From: an uncultured Eubacteriales bacterium
GTDB lineage: Bacteria > Bacillota > Clostridia > Oscillospirales > Acutalibacteraceae
Direction: 5' to 3'
Assembly (NCBI GenBank): GCA_900316455.1
Contig: ONCX01000001.1
Location: 76,649 to 140,648 of the forward strand
Length of the DNA: 64,000 bases
The position numbers and the translations under genes are program-made. Shown here in pieces: positions 42,337 through 46,401 of this stretch. Position 1 is the stretch's first letter; every line of letters begins with the position of its first letter. The notes beneath the pieces were generated by a model. It saw nothing but the letters and a program-made list of their open reading frames with translations, was not told the origin of the DNA and did no database searches.

Positions 42337-44442
42337 TCAGCCCTCCGCGTCGGCTGAGTCCTGAACGTCTTCAGCTTTGTCGGGCTTTTCATCTGTTATG
42401 AATTTATAGATATGCTTGTAATAATCCTTGTCGAGTATCTGCTTTGAATATGTGGTCTTGGCACGGACTATTTTATTCATAGCGGTCACGTAATTGTCCG
42501 TTTCTTCATCGGAGAGCGTGCAGCCGGAATCCGGCGTAAATCTCTTTGCCGAAGCGTTGTATTCGCCCTGGGTGCTTATCCACGACCAGCCGTTTACCTT
42601 CAGCAGCGCAAAATGATCCCCTTCCGCCATTATATCGCTTCCCATGAGAATTCTCGAATCGTATTCCAGACCGAAAAGATTGGAGAGAGTCGGGAGAATA
42701 TCTATGGTCGAGCAAGGCTTTTCCACCACTACAGGCTCGCTCATTGACGCGCTCCAGAGAATGAAGCCGTTGCGGTATAGGTCAAAATTATTTCTTATTC
42801 CGTCAGCCGGCAGACCGTAAAGCGAAGCAAGCTCGGAATCGCTGAGAGCATAGGGATAATGATCGGCTGCCATCGCAAACACCGTATCCTCCAGCTCGCC
42901 GGATTCGCTCAGAGCATCAACCAGCGCTTTCAGCATAAGCTCCACCTCATACTGGCACGCGTAATAAGCCTGAACTCCCTCAGGCAGCGTCAAAAACTTC
43001 TCCGGCAGATCCTTCCTGTGACGGGACGACATGGAATTTCCGCTGTAGGAATAATTGGCGTGTCCGCTTACGCTCATGTAATAGGCGTGGAACGGCGTAT
43101 CAAGATTTATGTAATCCTTCACGGAAACCTCCGCCATCTCCTTGTCGGAACGCGGCCAGCAGTTGCTTTTCAGCGTAAGACCGTTGCCGGTGGCTATCCA
43201 TTTATATCCGAAATTAGGATGGGATTTGTTGCGTCCGTAATATGTATATGAATTATTATGATAGGCAAATGTCTTATAGCCGATTTTTCTGAATTGATTT
43301 CCGAGTACAAGCGGCTGGTAGGTTGAACCGCTCGCTTTCAGGCAGTTGGCTGTTGTGTAGAAATTTCCAGTCATGTTGGAATACTCGCCGCTCGCGGTGC
43401 TTCCTCCCCAAACGGAATTATAGAAGTTTTTAAACACAAAGCCTTCGGTTGACATTTTGTAGAGAACCGGAGTAAACTCAGGGTCGATTATCTTATCCGA
43501 GAAGCCTTCGAGAGTGATGAAAATAAGATTCTTGCCCTTGAACATTCCGGTGTATTCGCTCTTTTGAGTGGGCTGAACGCTCTTGAAATACTTGTCCATC
43601 TTCCTGAGCTGATCCGACTTCGTGGAGCCTGCCGCCTTGTCGAAGTCAATATTCATCACGTTGTAGCCGTACTCGATTATCTCCTCGCCGCCGTTGTCGC
43701 CGTCGTCCGGCAATACAGGCTCGGTTACGTCGCCCGAATCGAATTCCTCAACAGGCGCTCCGAAAATAAGCTGCTTTATGTCGATACGAGTTGTGTTGAC
43801 AATTCCATAATAGCTGAAGCTCGTGTCAAGGTCATTTTGCAGATATGTATAATAATAATATGGCGAATAGTCATCCGTTTCCGATTTAGAGCCGTTAATC
43901 TGGACAATCATCGGAAAATACAGAACCGCGAACAAAACAAACGCTATTGCGGAATAAGTCGCGTTTCTCTCCGAATCGTCCGGAACCAGATATTTTCCCC
44001 CGACGCACATAAGCGCGAACGGAACGAAAAACGCGAGTATCATGTACCACACCCCGCCGGCGGCTACGATTGCTTCTTTCCAGAACTGCGTGATATCCTT
44101 TGCCTGTCCGAGCGTCTGCCACGAGAAGAATGTGTGGAAATTGCCGTAATAGCTTACATGAAATGAAAACCAAACCGCAAGCACGGCAAGCACCGTCTTA
44201 AAGAAAATCCTGCGAGCCTTTCCGTTTAGCAGCATTGCCGCGAGACTCAGCAGAAATCCCATGGACAGCGATAAAAAGAGCAGATATTTGTATTTTTCGT
44301 CAAACACTCCGCCGAATACATTCTTTTTCGCCAATATTTCCATGTACACAAGCGACAACGGCAAAAAAAGAATACTGATTACATTCCTTAAATACGCGCT
44401 TCTGTCTAATTCATCAAACAATCTGTTCATTGCTTTGCTCAA
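42337..44442 (-). CDS. LTA-synthase-family (LtaS-like) membrane sulfatase-fold phosphoglycerol transferase
   Basis: N-terminal multi-TM region plus an extracellular alkaline-phosphatase-superfamily domain (NLIFITLEGF, WGGSTASGEYS with Thr nucleophile context, ADHYPY). Confidence 0.8.
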   Translation of the reverse strand: MSKAMNRLFDELDRSAYLRNVISILFLPLSLVYMEILAKKNVFGGVFDEKYKYLLFLSLSMGFLLSLAAMLLNGKARRIFFKTVLAVLAVWFSFHVSYYGNFHTFFSWQTLGQAKDITQFWKEAIVAAGGVWYMILAFFVPFALMCVGGKYLVPDDSERNATYSAIAFVLFAVLYFPMIVQINGSKSETDDYSPYYYYTYLQNDLDTSFSYYGIVNTTRIDIKQLIFGAPVEEFDSGDVTEPVLPDDGDNGGEEIIEYGYNVMNIDFDKAAGSTKSDQLRKMDKYFKSVQPTQKSEYTGMFKGKNLIFITLEGFSDKIIDPEFTPVLYKMSTEGFVFKNFYNSVWGGSTASGEYSNMTGNFYTTANCLKASGSTYQPLVLGNQFRKIGYKTFAYHNNSYTYYGRNKSHPNFGYKWIATGNGLTLKSNCWPRSDKEMAEVSVKDYINLDTPFHAYYMSVSGHANYSYSGNSMSSRHRKDLPEKFLTLPEGVQAYYACQYEVELMLKALVDALSESGELEDTVFAMAADHYPYALSDSELASLYGLPADGIRNNFDLYRNGFILWSASMSEPVVVEKPCSTIDILPTLSNLFGLEYDSRILMGSDIMAEGDHFALLKVNGWSWISTQGEYNASAKRFTPDSGCTLSDEETDNYVTAMNKIVRAKTTYSKQILDKDYYKHIYKFITDEKPDKAEDVQDSADAEG

Positions 44443-44543
44443 TTCATTCTGACCTCCTGAATATTTTCAAACGACACAATTCTTAACCGACATAAAAACC
44501 TTAATTATCATTCTATCAGATATTTCAGAAAAATGCAATGCAA

Positions 44544-44589
44544 AAATCAAGGCTTCGCACGCTTTTTTAAAGCAACTCAGCCTTGATTT
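44544..44589 (-). terminator. hairpin terminator after the radical SAM gene
   Basis: 10-bp stem aaatcaaggc / gccttgattt with a U-rich tail. It separates the rSAM cassette from the LtaS-like gene. Confidence 0.6.
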
Positions 44590-44597
44590 GATTTTTT

Positions 44598-45665
44598 TTA
44601 TTTCGATGGCACTACATACCTTTTATAAAAATGCGATTCGTCCGCGTCAAGCATTTTCCTCGCCATTTCATCGGCTGTTGTTATGAGTATCTGCTGATAT
44701 CTGCACTGCTCACCGCTAACCTGTGACATATCCCCGCACTGCTGATAATTCAGACAGGCGCAGTCGTTGACGCAGCGCTTCTGCATGGCGCAGTCCGTAC
44801 AGAATGAAGGCTTGCGGAGACTCGCGGCATAAAATTCATCGCGCCTGACGGCATCTATTCCCTCGGCTACGCTCCCCATACGGTATTCAGGAACGCCGCC
44901 GAACTGAATGCAGGGGTATATGTTCCCGTCCCAATCAATATACGGCTTACGCATACCAAGCTCGCAGATATGGCATTTTCTGTCCTTTGTTATAGCGAGT
45001 ATTTTCTCTTCAAACGGGTTGAAGTAAATATCCCTGTCATGAATAAAATATTCAAATATGAGATCGCCGAGCATTCCAAGCTGTTCTGACAGAATATCCA
45101 TGCTTTCGTCGTTCCAGCCCGCGCTGGGACGGCTGTCAATTGCAAGGTTAAATCTCCTTGCCCCGAGATCGACAAGATGCTTCATGGAATCATAAACCAT
45201 TCCGGCAGTTTCAGGCGTTGCCGTCGCCATAATGAATGCGCCGGGACGATATTTCAGCAGCAGTCTGAGTTTTTCGTCAAGCTGTGAAAGACAGTCGTTT
45301 CCCGACGGATAAAGCCGGTTGACCCGGCTCATAATTCCGTCGTGAGACATAGCGATATATATATCTTCATTTTCGGCAAATCCAAGGAATTCGTCATCGA
45401 GCAAAAGCCCGTTTGTCGTCATGTTCCAGCTGAACTTTTTATCGGCAAACCGCTTTGAATATTCAATGCACCTGCGAATAAGCGGCTTGCAGAGCAGCGG
45501 CTCTCCGCCGAAAAACGAGACTCCGACAGATCCTTTTCCTTCTCCGGCAGCCATATCTATGGCACGAAGCGCCGTTTCCTCGCTCATAAAGACATTGTCG
45601 TGCGTTTCAAAGCAGTATTTGCAGCGCAGATTACACTGTCTGGTAAGAATTAATGATATATTCAT
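44598..45665 (-). CDS. radical SAM / SPASM-domain enzyme (anSME-like architecture, no N-terminal RRE)
   Basis: CNLRCKYC (CX3CX2C) at residues 11-18, GGEPLL. SPASM: CELGMRKPYIDWDGNIYPC (C-x12-G-x4-C) and CTDCAMQKRCVNDC (CX2CX5CX3C). ATG 45665 is 1 nt after the upstream ORF's TGA (track start TTG 45692). Confidence 0.9.
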   Translation of the reverse strand: MNISLILTRQCNLRCKYCFETHDNVFMSEETALRAIDMAAGEGKGSVGVSFFGGEPLLCKPLIRRCIEYSKRFADKKFSWNMTTNGLLLDDEFLGFAENEDIYIAMSHDGIMSRVNRLYPSGNDCLSQLDEKLRLLLKYRPGAFIMATATPETAGMVYDSMKHLVDLGARRFNLAIDSRPSAGWNDESMDILSEQLGMLGDLIFEYFIHDRDIYFNPFEEKILAITKDRKCHICELGMRKPYIDWDGNIYPCIQFGGVPEYRMGSVAEGIDAVRRDEFYAASLRKPSFCTDCAMQKRCVNDCACLNYQQCGDMSQVSGEQCRYQQILITTADEMARKMLDADESHFYKRYVVPSK

Positions 45666-45666
45666 A

Positions 45667-45948
45667 TCATTCACCGCTGTCCGACTGTTCAACAGTCATG
45701 TATCCCAAATAATCTCTGGCTGGGATTTCTTCCTCGCCCTGCTTGTCCTGTGAAGAAATATCCGATTCCGAAACAGCCGGAATATACTGTTCCTCTCCCA
45801 TAATGGTATTATCCGGCTCAGGCTTTGCGTGATGGCACGCTGTCAGGCTTCCGCACAGCAGCAGCGCCGAAGCCGCTGCTGTCAGCTTCTTTAAAACGTC
45901 GCTGCCTGAGTAACCGTCGTCATACAATTTAACTTTCCTTTTTTCCAT
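45667..45948 (-). CDS. small acidic lipoprotein-like peptide B (candidate rSAM substrate)
   Basis: MEKRKVKLYDDGYSGS..LLLCGSLTAC (lipobox)..EEQYIPAVSESD..DYLGYMTVEQSDSGE. GAAGAGG SD. Paralogue of peptide A. Confidence 0.65.
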   Translation of the reverse strand: MEKRKVKLYDDGYSGSDVLKKLTAAASALLLCGSLTACHHAKPEPDNTIMGEEQYIPAVSESDISSQDKQGEEEIPARDYLGYMTVEQSDSGE

Positions 45949-45958
45949 AACAACCTCT

Positions 45959-46243
45959 TCAATCCTGCTCCGACGGCACATAGGCAACGTCTCCGTCAAG
46001 TGTGAACATTTCCTCGTCAGACGACGGCGACGATTCCTCCGGCAAATCCGAATCCGAAACGCTCTCCACCGTCATATAACCGTCGTACTCAGTGGGTCTG
46101 TATTCAGTATCGCCGGATAAGGAATTTTTGAAGCAGCCGGTAAGTCCTCCAACCATTGCGGCGGCGGCAGCAGTTGCAGCGACTGCCTTCTTAAATGTGC
46201 CGCCGTAGCCTGCGTCGTACACGTCAACCTTACGCAATTTCAT
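45959..46243 (-). CDS. small acidic lipoprotein-like peptide A (candidate rSAM substrate)
   Basis: MKLRKVDVYDAGYGGT..AAAAAMVGGLTGC (lipobox)..EYDGYMTVESVSDSD..DVAYVPSEQD. GAGGTG SD 7 nt before ATG 46243. Confidence 0.65.
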   Translation of the reverse strand: MKLRKVDVYDAGYGGTFKKAVAATAAAAAMVGGLTGCFKNSLSGDTEYRPTEYDGYMTVESVSDSDLPEESSPSSDEEMFTLDGDVAYVPSEQD

Positions 46244-46349
46244 TAATATCCACCTCGTTTTTTTAATGATAAGCATTATGCTTCCATTTATATAACCCAA
46301 AATGAAGAAAAACGGTTGGTTAAATATTTAATATTTTTTATCTCAACCT

Positions 46350-46401
46350 AATAAAATTTCCCCGATGGTCTTACTCCTTGAAAGTCAGGAACATCGGGGA
46401 A
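46350..46401 (-). terminator. rho-independent terminator after the carboxyltransferase operon
   Basis: 10-bp stem ttccccgatg / catcggggaa followed by auuuuauu on the minus strand. Confidence 0.65.

What the first reader, a model, noticed from the sequence alone, without database searches (positions are those of the whole stretch)
44598..46243. Terminator-bounded three-gene cassette: two paralogous Tyr-motif lipoprotein-like peptides translationally coupled to an anSME-like radical SAM/SPASM enzyme
Seen in sequence: this is a minus-strand unit isolated by hairpin terminators at 46350-46401 (upstream) and 44544-44589 (downstream). Peptide A (46243->45959, 94 aa, GAGGTG SD) and peptide B (45948->45667, 93 aa, start 10 nt after A's stop) are clear paralogues. 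B's TGA is 1 nt from the ATG (45665) of a 355-aa enzyme. That enzyme has CNLRCKYC at residues 11-18 and a full SPASM signature (C-x12-G-x4-C, then CTDCAMQKRCVNDC). The peptides share an (E/D)Y-x-GYMTVE motif and a Y-(I/V)-P motif inside very acidic Ser/Asp/Glu tails.

Why it fits no class I know: the regions after the lipobox contain no Cys, which argues against sactipeptide, ranthipeptide, SCIFF or QhpC-type thioethers. There is no C/S-x-P/A-x-R sulfatase motif. The enzyme has no room for an N-terminal RRE. The peptides also look exported, which is unusual for RiPP precursors.

Speculation: the Y-x3-E spacing in YMTVE mirrors the E-x3-Y pair of PqqA that is cross-linked by the SPASM enzyme PqqE, so a Tyr-centred C-C or C-O cross-link is conceivable. 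A perfect DNA palindrome aagcat-a-atgctt (46271-46283) lies ~30 nt upstream of peptide A and could be an operator.
Basis: partly seen in the sequence, partly recalled or inferred. Interest (0 to 1): 0.8.

Follow-up and report, generated by a model that had tools for sequence, protein, structure and literature searches.

The report
Tagged lipoprotein peptides plus radical-SAM maturase
A three-gene unit in a rumen Ruminococcus-like bacterium encodes two exported, probably lipid-anchored acidic peptides and a radical-SAM enzyme that most likely modifies them before export; it belongs to a large, widespread family I could not find in Pfam, NCBIfam or the searched literature, and its chemistry is unknown.

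Summary
On the minus strand lie peptide A (46243-45959, 94 aa), peptide B (45948-45667, 93 aa) and a 355-aa radical SAM/SPASM enzyme (45665-44598). They are tightly coupled and sit between two real hairpin terminators.

The enzyme reaches no curated family cut-off. Its nearest relatives are PapB and CteB, thioether-forming maturases, from which it lacks the N-terminal recognition domain. anSME is more distant.

Both peptides start with a tag, M-K-phi-x-K-phi-x-x-Y-[DE]-x-G-Y (phi = hydrophobic residue), placed before a lipoprotein-type signal peptide. The same tag heads the ORF just upstream of the enzyme's homologues (36-80% identity) in rumen, gut, termite and sediment assemblies. It occurs on short acidic peptides and on a 250-300-aa protein family with about 1,800 clusters and no annotation.

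My best model is that the tag recruits the RRE-less maturase, the repeats are modified in the cytoplasm, and Sec/Lgt/Lsp then export the peptide and remove the leader. The chemistry is unresolved. A thioether, a formylglycine and a PqqE-like Tyr link each lack support. The palindrome is not conserved.

The parts
46347..46401 (-). Hairpin terminator of the upstream OadA-like carboxylase gene. It isolates the cassette on its 5' side.
   Evidence: RNA fold -21.9 kcal/mol, z -3.1, 0 of 200 shuffles as stable, followed by AAAUUUUAUUA. Inverted repeat I1.
46288..46319 (-). Promoter-like element conserved among close relatives: CCAACCGTTT (46319-46310) then GGTTATAT (46297-46290).
   Evidence: Conserved block in the alignment of the upstream regions of the window, L003, L004 and L005. 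Not detected as a sigma-70 promoter. Function is inferred only.
46271..46283 (.). Palindrome aagcat-a-atgctt. Present but not conserved, so there is no evidence that it is an operator.
   Evidence: One match in the window, 0.01 expected. No match in 110 related loci. Not aligned or conserved. One of nine 6-7-nt palindromes in this AT-rich spacer.
45959..46243 (-). Peptide A precursor, 94 aa: N-terminal tag, lipoprotein signal, then an acidic 57-aa tail (16 D+E, 2 K+R).
   Evidence: ORF and SD. A 96%-identical database relative, P0245, and 12 other A-type relatives.
46205..46243 (-). Peptide A N-terminal tag, MKLRKVDVYDAGY (residues 1-13). Proposed docking site for the enzyme.
   Evidence: M1, Y9, G12 and Y13 are invariant in 13 clade members. 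The tag HMM hits only ORFs directly upstream of the enzyme. hhalign places it on the tag of the long-type partners.
46133..46204 (-). Peptide A signal peptide, residues 14-37: KK, an Ala-rich hydrophobic stretch, lipobox LTG-C37.
   Evidence: Read from the sequence. C37 is invariant. No signal-peptide predictor was available.
46100..46120 (-). Core repeat A1, LSGDTEY (residues 42-48).
   Evidence: Motif scan. Enrichment statistics.
46067..46087 (-). Core repeat A2, YDGYMTV (residues 53-59).
45980..46000 (-). Core repeat A3, LDGDVAY followed by VP (residues 82-88).
   Evidence: G84 is invariant and Y88 is at least 90% conserved..
45667..45948 (-). Peptide B precursor, 93 aa: tag MEKRKVKLYDDGY, signal peptide with lipobox LTA-C38, acidic 55-aa tail (14 D+E, 3 K+R).
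   Evidence: P0273 holds this sequence with a longer called start and was seen on 106 contigs.
45784..45804 (-). Core repeat B1, IMGEEQY followed by IP (residues 49-55).
45691..45711 (-). Core repeat B2, YLGYMTV (residues 80-86).
44598..45665 (-). Radical SAM/SPASM maturase, 355 aa, with no N-terminal RRE.
   Evidence: Pfam Radical_SAM, Fer4_12 and SPASM. NCBIfam best hit is PapB, 178.8 bits against a cut-off of 340. AF2 pLDDT 94.3. Foldseek TM-scores: CteB 0.84, anSME 0.82, ChlB 0.80.
45612..45635 (-). CNLRCKYC, the C11-x3-C15-x2-C18 site for the radical SAM [4Fe-4S] cluster.
   Evidence: Sequence. C15 and C18 are invariant and C11 is present in 64 of 65 homologues.
44703..44975 (-). SPASM region, residues 231-321. 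Eight Cys are invariant (C234, C252, C289, C292, C298, C302, C304, C321). C231 is present in 53 of 65 homologues.
   Evidence: Column counts on the 65-sequence alignment A4. Alignments to CteB and anSME.
44539..44589 (-). Hairpin terminator after the enzyme gene. It separates the cassette from the LtaS-like gene.
   Evidence: -21.3 kcal/mol, z -3.7, followed by UUUUUG.

Best explanation
This is a minimal, two-component maturation system: precursor(s) plus a radical SAM/SPASM maturase, acting on exported peptides.

Shown:
- The enzyme belongs to a coherent, widespread clade.
- The upstream neighbour in that clade always starts with the tag M-K-phi-x-[KP]-phi-x-x-Y-x-x-[PG]-x-Y, followed by an export signal, usually one with a lipobox Cys.
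- The exported part carries one or more copies of phi-x-G-x-phi-x-[VIYT]-x-[PE].

Inferred mechanism:
1. The N-terminal tag acts as the leader that docks the nascent precursor onto the RRE-less enzyme in the cytoplasm.
2. The enzyme uses the 5'-deoxyadenosyl radical to abstract a hydrogen within each core repeat (3 in peptide A, 2 in peptide B) and installs a sulfur-free modification. Candidates are an intramolecular C-C or C-O cross-link, an epimerisation, or a side-chain rearrangement.
3. The general Sec / Lgt / signal peptidase II pathway exports the product and lipidates C37 or C38. In the same step it removes the tag together with the signal peptide, so no dedicated protease or transporter gene is needed.
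4. The end product would be a modified, strongly acidic peptide of about 55 residues, tethered to the outer face of the membrane.

The window's cassette is a short-tail variant of a system that elsewhere matures a 250-300-aa lipoprotein family of unknown fold.
For: - Enzyme class. It has the CX3CX2C site and a full SPASM region. The fold matches CteB, anSME and ChlB with TM 0.80-0.84. All its closest NCBIfam hits are peptide or protein maturases.
- Coupling. Gaps of 10 nt and 1 nt in the window, and -4 to +26 nt in related loci.
- Tag association. By HMM, 9 of 9 loci with enzyme score >=400 bits and 26 of 34 at 200-400 bits have a tagged ORF directly upstream on the same strand, with no tag elsewhere in those loci. 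Seven of the 8 HMM misses show a partner when read by eye: a tag variant in L033, L039, L041, L045 and L054, an end-truncated partner domain in L056, and a likely frameshifted copy of the L051 partner in L050.
- Tag conservation. Y9, G12 and Y13 are invariant in the close clade, and P12, Y14 and P15 in the long-type partners. The tag sits at residue 1 in nearly all of the top 150 long-type representatives.
- Precursor-like behaviour. Tagged ORFs occur in tandem arrays of 2-3 (window, L001, L002, L005, L008, L044, L046, L049, L079).
- Core motif. phi-x-G-x3-[VIYTF] occurs 87 times against 12.1 +/- 3.4 in shuffles. In a subset of 17 diverse peptides it occurs 43 times against 7.2 +/- 2.5. Tagged peptides without a signal peptide keep both the tag and a C-terminal phi-x-G-D-phi motif (L002, L008, L031).
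- No conserved protease or transporter. Neighbours differ between clades.
- Precedent. Bufferins are RiPPs that carry Sec signal peptides (PMC11626156). ChlB is an RRE-less radical SAM enzyme crystallised with its substrate's leader (reference in PMC12912966).
Against: - No experiment or structure shows that the enzyme binds the tag or touches the repeats.
- The chemistry is not identified.
- The core motif could be a structural or functional feature of the mature peptides, for example Asp-Gly beta-turns, and not a modification site.
- The closest characterised relatives (PapB, CteB, QhpD, CcpM) all make Cys thioethers, yet the window's exported tails have no Cys.
- Lipoprotein processing is read from the sequence pattern only.
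- A few long-type partners lack the lipobox Cys (L032, L033, L054, L096).
- One locus, L048, shows no tagged partner.
- The profile-profile match between the short-type and long-type N-termini is weak (hhalign E 5.8e-4, probability 29%).
Confidence: 0.55

Rival explanations
1. The conserved N-terminal tag is itself the substrate, for example through modification or cross-linking of the invariant Tyr. The functional product would then be the modified tag or signal peptide released by signal peptidase II, analogous to enterococcal pheromones cut from lipoprotein signal peptides. The acidic tails would be carriers.
For: The tag is the only element shared by all partners, whatever their mature part: short acidic tails, Thr/Pro-rich tails, or a 250-300-aa domain. 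Tyr is almost never replaced by Phe. The tag keeps a fixed distance from Met1.
Against: The tails carry a strongly over-represented repeat. They diversify in tandem paralogues the way RiPP cores do. The n-region of a cleaved signal peptide stays on the cytoplasmic side and has no known export route. One tagged peptide has Phe in place of the Tyr (L031, HYEGAF). More distant family members lack this Tyr (L072, L099).
Confidence: 0.17
2. The enzyme is a ranthipeptide or sactipeptide-type thioether synthase like its closest relatives PapB and CteB. It would link a Cys (the lipobox Cys, C32 of peptide B, or the Cys found in most A-type orthologues) to an Asp or Glu carbon.
For: The best NCBIfam and PDB hits are thioether formers. 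Ten of 13 A-type orthologues carry x-C-S-S-[DE]-[DE]-E, which is the C-x3-D/E motif of PapB substrates (motif as described in PMC9413430). Long-type partners have a nearly invariant G-C.
Against: The window's peptide A has Pro at that position, and B-type peptides have no Cys after the lipobox. C-x3-[DE] is not enriched in these acidic tails (z 1.2-2.5). Several partners lack the lipobox Cys (L032, L033, L054, L096), and the L040/L043-type partners lack the G-C Cys. The family has 8 invariant SPASM Cys plus C231 in 53 of 65 members, whereas CteB has 7 in the aligned region. In CteB the substrate Cys fills the open Fe site (PMC8172795).
Confidence: 0.1
3. The enzyme is an anSME-type maturase that makes formylglycine for the adjacent Sulfatase-fold protein (42337-44442). 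The small ORFs would be unrelated lipoproteins.
For: The next gene downstream has a Pfam Sulfatase domain (91 bits). The enzyme shares anSME's RRE-less architecture and fold (TM 0.82).
Against: The neighbour is LtaS-like (NF053595) and contains no C/S-x-P/A-x-R anywhere. A terminator separates the two genes. That neighbour occurs in only 4 related loci, whereas the tagged ORFs are found in nearly all. The anSME models score 79.5 bits against a cut-off of 349. The position after C252 is Ile or Val, where the alignment shows Asp in anSME.
Confidence: 0.02
4. The small proteins are not substrates. They would be accessory or chaperone subunits (PqqD-like) or membrane anchors for the enzyme, and the true substrate is encoded elsewhere.
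For: Small conserved proteins encoded directly upstream of SPASM enzymes have been proposed as PqqD-like helpers in other systems (PMC8939145). No modification has been demonstrated here.
Against: Copy number varies from 1 to 3. The C-terminal parts are hypervariable and the exported parts range from 50 to 300 aa, which does not suit a helper subunit. A signal peptide would take the protein away from a cytoplasmic Fe-S enzyme. No other conserved candidate substrate appears in any neighbourhood.
Confidence: 0.08

Closest known systems
PapB / freyrasin (ranthipeptide maturase, NCBIfam NF047865)
   Same: It is the best curated-model hit for the window enzyme and for distant family members (178.8-230.3 bits), covering almost the whole model. 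It is a radical SAM plus SPASM enzyme. Its substrate has repeated short motifs in an acidic context.
   Different: The score is far below the 340-bit cut-off. PapB links Cys to Asp or Glu in C-x3-D motifs (PMC9413430), whereas the window's exported tails have no Cys. PapB's leader is expected to bind an RRE domain (PMC9413430), and the window enzyme starts 10 residues before its CX3CX2C site.
CteB / SCIFF thermocellin maturase (PDB 5WGG/5WHY)
   Same: It is the closest solved structure by sequence (212 bits) and by fold (TM 0.84, rmsd 2.4 A). The motif after the second SPASM Cys is similar: YPC-[VI]-QF here, YPCHQF in CteB.
   Different: CteB has an N-terminal RRE, and the alignment starts at its residue 99. 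It has one SPASM Cys fewer, leaving an open Fe site for the substrate Cys (PMC8172795). Its substrate is a six-Cys cytoplasmic peptide.
anSME (anaerobic sulfatase-maturating enzyme, PDB 4K36-4K39)
   Same: It has about the same size and no RRE. It acts on a protein that is exported afterwards. The fold matches with TM 0.82. An extra upstream Cys (C231 here) aligns with anSME C255.
   Different: It scores 79.5 bits against a cut-off of 349. No C/S-x-P/A-x-R client is present. There is no Asp after the YPC Cys.
ChlB and other three-residue cyclophane synthases (triceptides)
   Same: ChlB is an RRE-less radical SAM/SPASM enzyme that binds its substrate's leader directly and modifies several repeated short motifs. 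The fold matches with TM 0.80 (PMC12912966).
   Different: The NCBIfam cyclophane models score only about 40-44 bits for the window enzyme. Triceptide cores need an aromatic residue at position 1 of a 3-residue motif. The aromatic residue in the present motif is conserved only in the Ruminococcus clade.
Bufferins (MNIO-modified RiPPs with Sec signal peptides)
   Same: The precursors carry a general-secretion signal peptide and are modified in the cytoplasm before export (PMC11626156).
   Different: The enzyme class is different (MNIO, not radical SAM). The targets are Cys residues. No extra recognition tag in front of the signal peptide and no lipobox are described.
QhpD / QhpC (quinohaemoprotein amine dehydrogenase maturation)
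   Same: This is a radical SAM/SPASM enzyme that cross-links a small protein subunit destined for the periplasm. The TIGR03906 hit scores 114 bits.
   Different: The score is below the 453-bit cut-off. QhpC is Cys-rich and the links are thioethers (my own knowledge of the system, not tested here).

Membership tests
Radical SAM superfamily with SPASM domain | CX3CX2C cluster site near the N-terminus of a partial TIM barrel | tested here: met
   C11, C15 and C18. Pfam Radical_SAM 57.6 bits against a cut-off of 29.5. Conserved in 64-65 of 65 homologues. The AF2 model matches radical SAM structures.
Radical SAM superfamily with SPASM domain | C-terminal SPASM motif CX9-15GX4C ... CX2CX5CX3C ... 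C, binding two auxiliary clusters | tested here: met
   C234-x12-G247-x4-C252, C289-x2-C292-x5-C298-x3-C302 and C321, all invariant. Pfam SPASM 23.8 bits against a cut-off of 21.5. Cluster content itself cannot be tested with these tools.
PapB-family ranthipeptide maturase (NF047865) | Score at or above the curated cut-off of 340 bits | tested here: not met
   178.8 bits for the window enzyme; 179.5-230.3 bits for distant family members.
PapB-family ranthipeptide maturase (NF047865) | Substrate with Cys-x3-Asp/Glu motifs that become thioethers | tested here: not met
   No Cys after the lipobox in A or B. C-x3-[DE] is not enriched in the family's tails. The motif is present in 10 of 13 A-type orthologues but not in the window.
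SCIFF maturase (TIGR03974) / CteB | Curated cut-off of 425 bits; N-terminal RRE; six-Cys-in-45 substrate | tested here: not met
   120.1 bits. The alignment to CteB starts at CteB residue 99. No SCIFF peptide is present in the cassette.
Anaerobic sulfatase-maturating enzyme (TIGR03942 / NF010321) | Curated cut-offs of 349 and 441 bits | tested here: not met
   79.5 and 62.4 bits.
Anaerobic sulfatase-maturating enzyme (TIGR03942 / NF010321) | Client protein with a C/S-x-P/A-x-R motif | tested here: not met
   No such motif in peptide A or B, nor in the neighbouring Sulfatase-fold, LtaS-like protein.
Three-residue cyclophane-forming enzymes (YhhB, AmcB, FxsB, GrrM models) | Curated NCBIfam cut-offs (425-445 bits for AmcB and YhhB) and an aromatic-X-X core motif | tested here: not met
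   AmcB 43.6 bits and YhhB 40.2 bits. The aromatic position is not conserved across the enzyme family.
RiPP-type precursor/maturase pair (general definition) | Precursor gene adjacent to the modifying enzyme, with a conserved N-terminal recognition part and a variable C-terminal core | tested here: met
   Adjacency and coupling. Conserved tag against variable tails, and tandem paralogues.
RiPP-type precursor/maturase pair (general definition) | Demonstrated enzyme-dependent post-translational modification and leader removal | not testable with these tools
   This needs co-expression and mass spectrometry. Leader removal by signal peptidase II is inferred from the lipobox.
Bacterial lipoprotein precursors (Lgt/Lsp substrates) | Positively charged n-region, hydrophobic h-region, lipobox [LVI]-[ASTG]-[GA]-C | tested here: met
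   A: KK, AVAATAAAAAMVGG, LTG-C37. B: KK, LTAAASALLLCGS, LTA-C38. The Cys is invariant in the clade. This is a pattern match only; no dedicated predictor and no experiment. The n-region is unusually long (17-19 residues) because of the tag.

The most novel reading that the evidence does not exclude
This would be a new and very widespread class of radical-SAM-matured exported lipopeptides and lipoproteins. A short tag placed in front of an ordinary lipoprotein signal peptide recruits an RRE-less SPASM enzyme. The housekeeping Sec/Lgt/Lsp machinery then acts as both leader protease and exporter. The enzyme would install a sulfur-free modification, not yet described, on repeated phi-x-G-x-phi-x-phi-x-P units. 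The rumen cassette in this window would be the minimal, peptide-only form of a system that matures more than 1,000 clusters of unannotated lipoproteins across Bacillota, Verrucomicrobiota and Planctomycetota.
Probability: 0.45. Interest if true: 0.85.

Novelty: new variant of a known kind. Interest (0 to 1): 0.68.

Why it matters
If the model holds, it adds a new logic to ribosomal peptide and protein maturation. Recognition tag and export signal are fused into one disposable N-terminal segment, so two genes are enough to put a radical-modified peptide on the cell surface.

It would give a function to a radical SAM clade and to a partner family of about 1,800 clusters at 50% identity, neither of which has any Pfam or NCBIfam model. 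It would point to chemistry that the closest characterised enzymes (Cys thioether formers) cannot explain. It would also identify modified, lipid-anchored acidic peptides as a surface component of abundant rumen and gut Clostridia.

The system is directly testable. Three small genes can be co-expressed, there are five candidate sites, and mass spectrometry gives a clear read-out.

Tried and rejected
- **anSME acting on the neighbouring Sulfatase-fold protein.** Rejected. The neighbour is LtaS-like, has no FGly motif, lies behind a terminator, and is a neighbour in only 4 loci.
- **Operator palindrome.** Rejected on conservation.
- **Thioether through the lipobox Cys.** Rejected as a general mechanism, because some partners have no lipobox Cys.
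- **C-x3-D/E thioether.** The motif is not in the window and is not enriched.
- **Pfam DUF6142 as a home for the peptides.** Only 2 of 13 members match, at E about 0.1.
- **NCBIfam and Pfam for the peptides and the long-type partners.** No hits.
- **Fold of the long-type partner.** The AF2 model is good (pLDDT 87), but there is no PDB match below E 0.2. The sequence profile against PDB gives nothing significant.
- **Rfam on the cassette and its leader.** Nothing.
- **Sigma-70 promoter and terminator scanner.** It found no minus-strand sites. The hairpins were recovered by folding.
- **Literature.** Searches for radical SAM with lipobox, lipoprotein signal peptide or Sec signal found no description of this system. 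The library lacks most subscription journals, so absence is not proof.
- **Glycyl-radical, spliceotide (X-Y-G) and triceptide readings of the motif.** Considered from memory and set aside, because the defining residues are not at the conserved positions.
- **Co-folding of enzyme and peptide.** Not attempted.


Full report
**1. What is in the window**

On the minus strand, three ORFs follow each other.
- Peptide A runs 46243->45959 (94 aa), with GAGGTG 8 nt before the ATG.
- Peptide B runs 45948->45667 (93 aa), starting 10 nt after A's stop.
- A 355-aa enzyme runs 45665->44598, with its ATG 1 nt after B's TGA.

The unit is bracketed by two stable hairpins followed by U-runs. They fold at -21.9 and -21.3 kcal/mol, with z -3.1 and -3.7 against dinucleotide shuffles. 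The consensus scanner missed them because their loops are long.

The flanking genes are housekeeping genes. Upstream lie a carboxyltransferase, a biotin carrier and an OadA-like carboxylase. Downstream lie an LtaS-like Sulfatase-fold membrane protein and a glycogen-debranching enzyme. The closest genomic relatives are rumen MAGs labelled Ruminococcus, Clostridiales and Acutalibacteraceae.

**2. The enzyme**

It has the C11-x3-C15-x2-C18 site and a complete SPASM region. Pfam finds Radical_SAM, Fer4_12 and SPASM.

No NCBIfam model reaches its cut-off.
- PapB-family ranthipeptide maturase is the best hit, at 178.8 bits against a cut-off of 340.
- Nif11-type, SCIFF, QhpD and CcpM maturases follow.
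- anSME scores only 79.5 bits against a cut-off of 349.

Against solved structures, the family profile hits CteB at 212 bits, beginning at CteB residue 99. The window enzyme therefore lacks CteB's N-terminal RRE. anSME scores 122 bits.

The AF2 model is confident (pLDDT 94.3). It superposes on CteB (TM 0.84), anSME (0.82) and the RRE-less cyclophane synthase ChlB (0.80).

In a 65-sequence alignment, eight SPASM cysteines are invariant: C234, C252, C289, C292, C298, C302, C304 and C321. C231 is present in 53 of 65. CteB has seven Cys in the aligned region, and its open Fe site is filled by the substrate Cys (PMC8172795). I infer that both auxiliary clusters here can be fully protein-ligated. 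That fits a chemistry which does not need a substrate thiolate. This is inference from alignment, not a measurement.

**3. The enzyme family and its partners**

- 1,852 database proteins match at E <= 1e-20. There is a close clade at 53-99% identity, then a broad set at 36-41%.
- I collected 110 loci.
- In loci whose enzyme scores >=200 bits against the window enzyme, the ORF immediately upstream lies on the same strand, with a gap of -4 to +26 nt.
- That ORF begins with a shared tag, M-K-[IVL]-x-[KP]-[VI]-x-x-Y-x-x-[PG]-x-Y. In distant members the tag often continues as P-T-R.
- A short HMM of the tag finds it in 9 of 9 loci at >=400 bits and 26 of 34 at 200-400 bits, and nowhere else in those loci.
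- Seven of the 8 misses show a partner when read by eye. L033, L039, L041, L045 and L054 carry a tag variant. L056 has a partner domain truncated at the contig end. L050 has what looks like a frameshifted copy of the L051 partner. L048 is the only clear exception.
- After the tag comes an export signal. It is usually a lipoprotein signal with a lipobox Cys. In a few cases (L032, L033, L054, L096) it is an A-x-A-type signal without Cys.

**4. Three kinds of partner**

(a) A 250-300-aa protein. Its invariant features are P12, Y14 and P15 in the tag, then G-C, P-P-x-F-x-S-E-x-E, and a C-terminal helix ending W-L-K-x-Q-G-x-I.
- It has no Pfam or NCBIfam match.
- Its confident AF2 model (pLDDT 87) has no PDB fold match.
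- An exhaustive HMMER search finds 1,802 clusters at 50% identity with E <= 1e-3, and 923 with E <= 1e-30. Profile position 1 falls on protein residue 1 in nearly all of the top 150.
- Source names include Verrucomicrobia, PVC group, Phycisphaerae, Opitutaceae, Bacillota and Clostridium.

(b) Short peptides of about 75-190 aa with acidic or Thr/Pro-rich tails, often in tandem arrays of two or three. Examples are the window, L001, L002, L005, L008, L044, L046, L049 and L079.

(c) Tagged peptides of about 65-80 aa without any signal peptide, found in L002, L005, L008 and L031.

The window's peptides are of kind (b). 41 database relatives share their layout, and none is named.

**5. The repeated core**

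In the exported parts of 33 short partners, phi-x-G occurs 117 times against 48.6 +/- 5.8 in shuffles. The pattern phi-x-G-x3-[VIYTF] occurs 87 times against 12.1 +/- 3.4 (z 22). In a subset of 17 diverse peptides it occurs 43 times against 7.2 +/- 2.5.

The consensus, numbered from the Gly, is:
- position -4: V or P
- position -2: L, I or Y
- position -1: D, A or S
- position 0: G
- position +1: D, E, A or G
- position +4: V, Y, I or T
- positions +6 and +7: P or E

Peptide A has three copies (LSGDTEY, YDGYMTV, LDGDVAY-VP) and peptide B has two (IMGEEQY-IP, YLGYMTV).

Two further observations link the partner kinds.
- The signal-less peptides keep a C-terminal copy: FYGDIIY, LMGDIMA, YYGYDMV.
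- The long-type partners have G-C-phi-x-phi-x-P-P at the start of their domain, with the same G-x5-P spacing. Extra copies occur in the linker, for example HILDGDIAF and YVLMGDPVPVY.

Tyr at position +4 is typical only of the Ruminococcus clade.

**6. Interpretation**

The conserved, strictly N-terminal tag, the variable and repeat-bearing C-terminal parts, the tandem paralogues and the tight coupling all match the leader/core logic of ribosomal peptide maturation.

The unusual point is where the leader sits: in front of a general export signal. No protease or transporter is conserved nearby.

The simplest model has three steps.
1. The RRE-less enzyme docks on the tag. ChlB is a precedent for an RRE-less radical SAM enzyme solved in complex with its substrate's leader region.
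2. The repeats are modified in the cytoplasm.
3. Sec/Lgt/Lsp export and lipidate the product, and remove tag and signal together.

Bufferins show that ribosomally made, modified peptides can carry Sec signals (PMC11626156).

The chemistry cannot be read from sequence. I favour a sulfur-free reaction for two reasons: the tails lack Cys, and the SPASM Cys set is complete. I cannot choose between cross-linking, epimerisation and side-chain rearrangement.

**7. Rivals**

- **The tag as the real substrate.** This remains possible. The tag is the only universal element, and its Tyr is almost never Phe. But it does not explain the repeat, and it gives the product no route out of the cell.
- **A thioether.** The enzyme's relatives suggest it, and so does a C-x3-D/E site in 10 of 13 A-type orthologues. 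The window's peptide A has Pro there, B-type peptides have no Cys, and the motif is not enriched.
- **An anSME role for the LtaS-like neighbour.** Excluded.
- **A helper-subunit role for the small proteins.** This fits poorly with their variable number, length and export signal.

**8.

The palindrome at 46271-46283 is present. It is absent from all related loci and from the aligned upstream regions. What is conserved there is a promoter-like CCAACCGTTT...GGTTATAT element. Rfam finds nothing in the cassette.

**9. Novelty**

I found no curated model and no paper describing this enzyme-partner pair. The literature library is incomplete, so this is not proof of absence.

The enzyme class is known. 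The precursor architecture, the partner family and, probably, the chemistry are not. I rate it a new variant of a known kind, of clear interest to people working on radical SAM enzymes and RiPPs. The limitation is that nothing about the reaction itself has been shown.

Noticed in passing
window 46288-46319 (minus strand): A promoter-like element, CCAACCGTTT ... GGTTATAT, is conserved between the window and L003, L004 and L005, just downstream of the upstream terminator. The AAC-type -35 region suggests an alternative sigma factor. The sigma-70 scan did not find it.
   Followed up: partly
P0241-P0253 (orthologues of peptide A); window peptide A residues 70-76 (SPSSDEE): Ten of 13 A-type orthologues have a Cys in x-C-S-S-[DE]-[DE]-E, which is the C-x3-D/E spacing used by PapB. 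The window's peptide A has Pro at that position. C-x3-[DE] is not enriched over shuffles in these acidic tails.
   Followed up: partly
window peptides A (VSDSD, residues 62-66) and B (VSESD); alignment A5: A V-S-[DE]-S-D motif is nearly invariant in the Ruminococcus-clade peptides (S65 and D66 invariant). It lies between core repeats, and its role is unknown.
   Followed up: no
L002 3756-4004; L005 3781-3981; L008 907-1101; L031 1538-1774: A third kind of tagged small ORF sits directly before the enzyme. It has the same N-terminal tag and a C-terminal phi-x-G-D-phi motif, but a highly charged helical middle part and no signal peptide or lipobox. The window has no such ORF.
   Followed up: partly
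L027, L028, L032-L037, L057, L058, L096 (upstream ORFs); P0121-P0419: The long-type partner is a large unannotated protein family: 1,802 clusters at 50% identity. It has a confident AF2 model, no PDB fold match, and an invariant F-x-H-G-x-G-R-G-x-x-G-C ... P-P-x-F-L-S-E-E-E signature.
   Followed up: partly
L083, L086, L087, L091 (upstream ORFs); L072, L099: More distant radical SAM/SPASM enzymes (27-31% identity) also sit behind lipoprotein-like ORFs with different N-termini. One group starts MKIEKKK..., is Ser-rich and ends SMVTTFEQDDIQA. The other has ...VEHYDSSEVAAKKKK. The link between this enzyme group and exported precursors may be wider than the tag family.
   Followed up: no
window 42337-44442 (minus strand); L003 and L004: The downstream gene encodes a 701-aa LtaS-like Sulfatase-fold membrane protein with no formylglycine motif. 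L003 and L004 carry two tandem paralogues of it. It is syntenic only in the closest relatives.
   Followed up: yes
L048 2-2488: This is the one locus with a good enzyme homologue (216 bits) whose upstream ORF is a long repeat protein of more than 800 aa, not a tagged partner.
   Followed up: no
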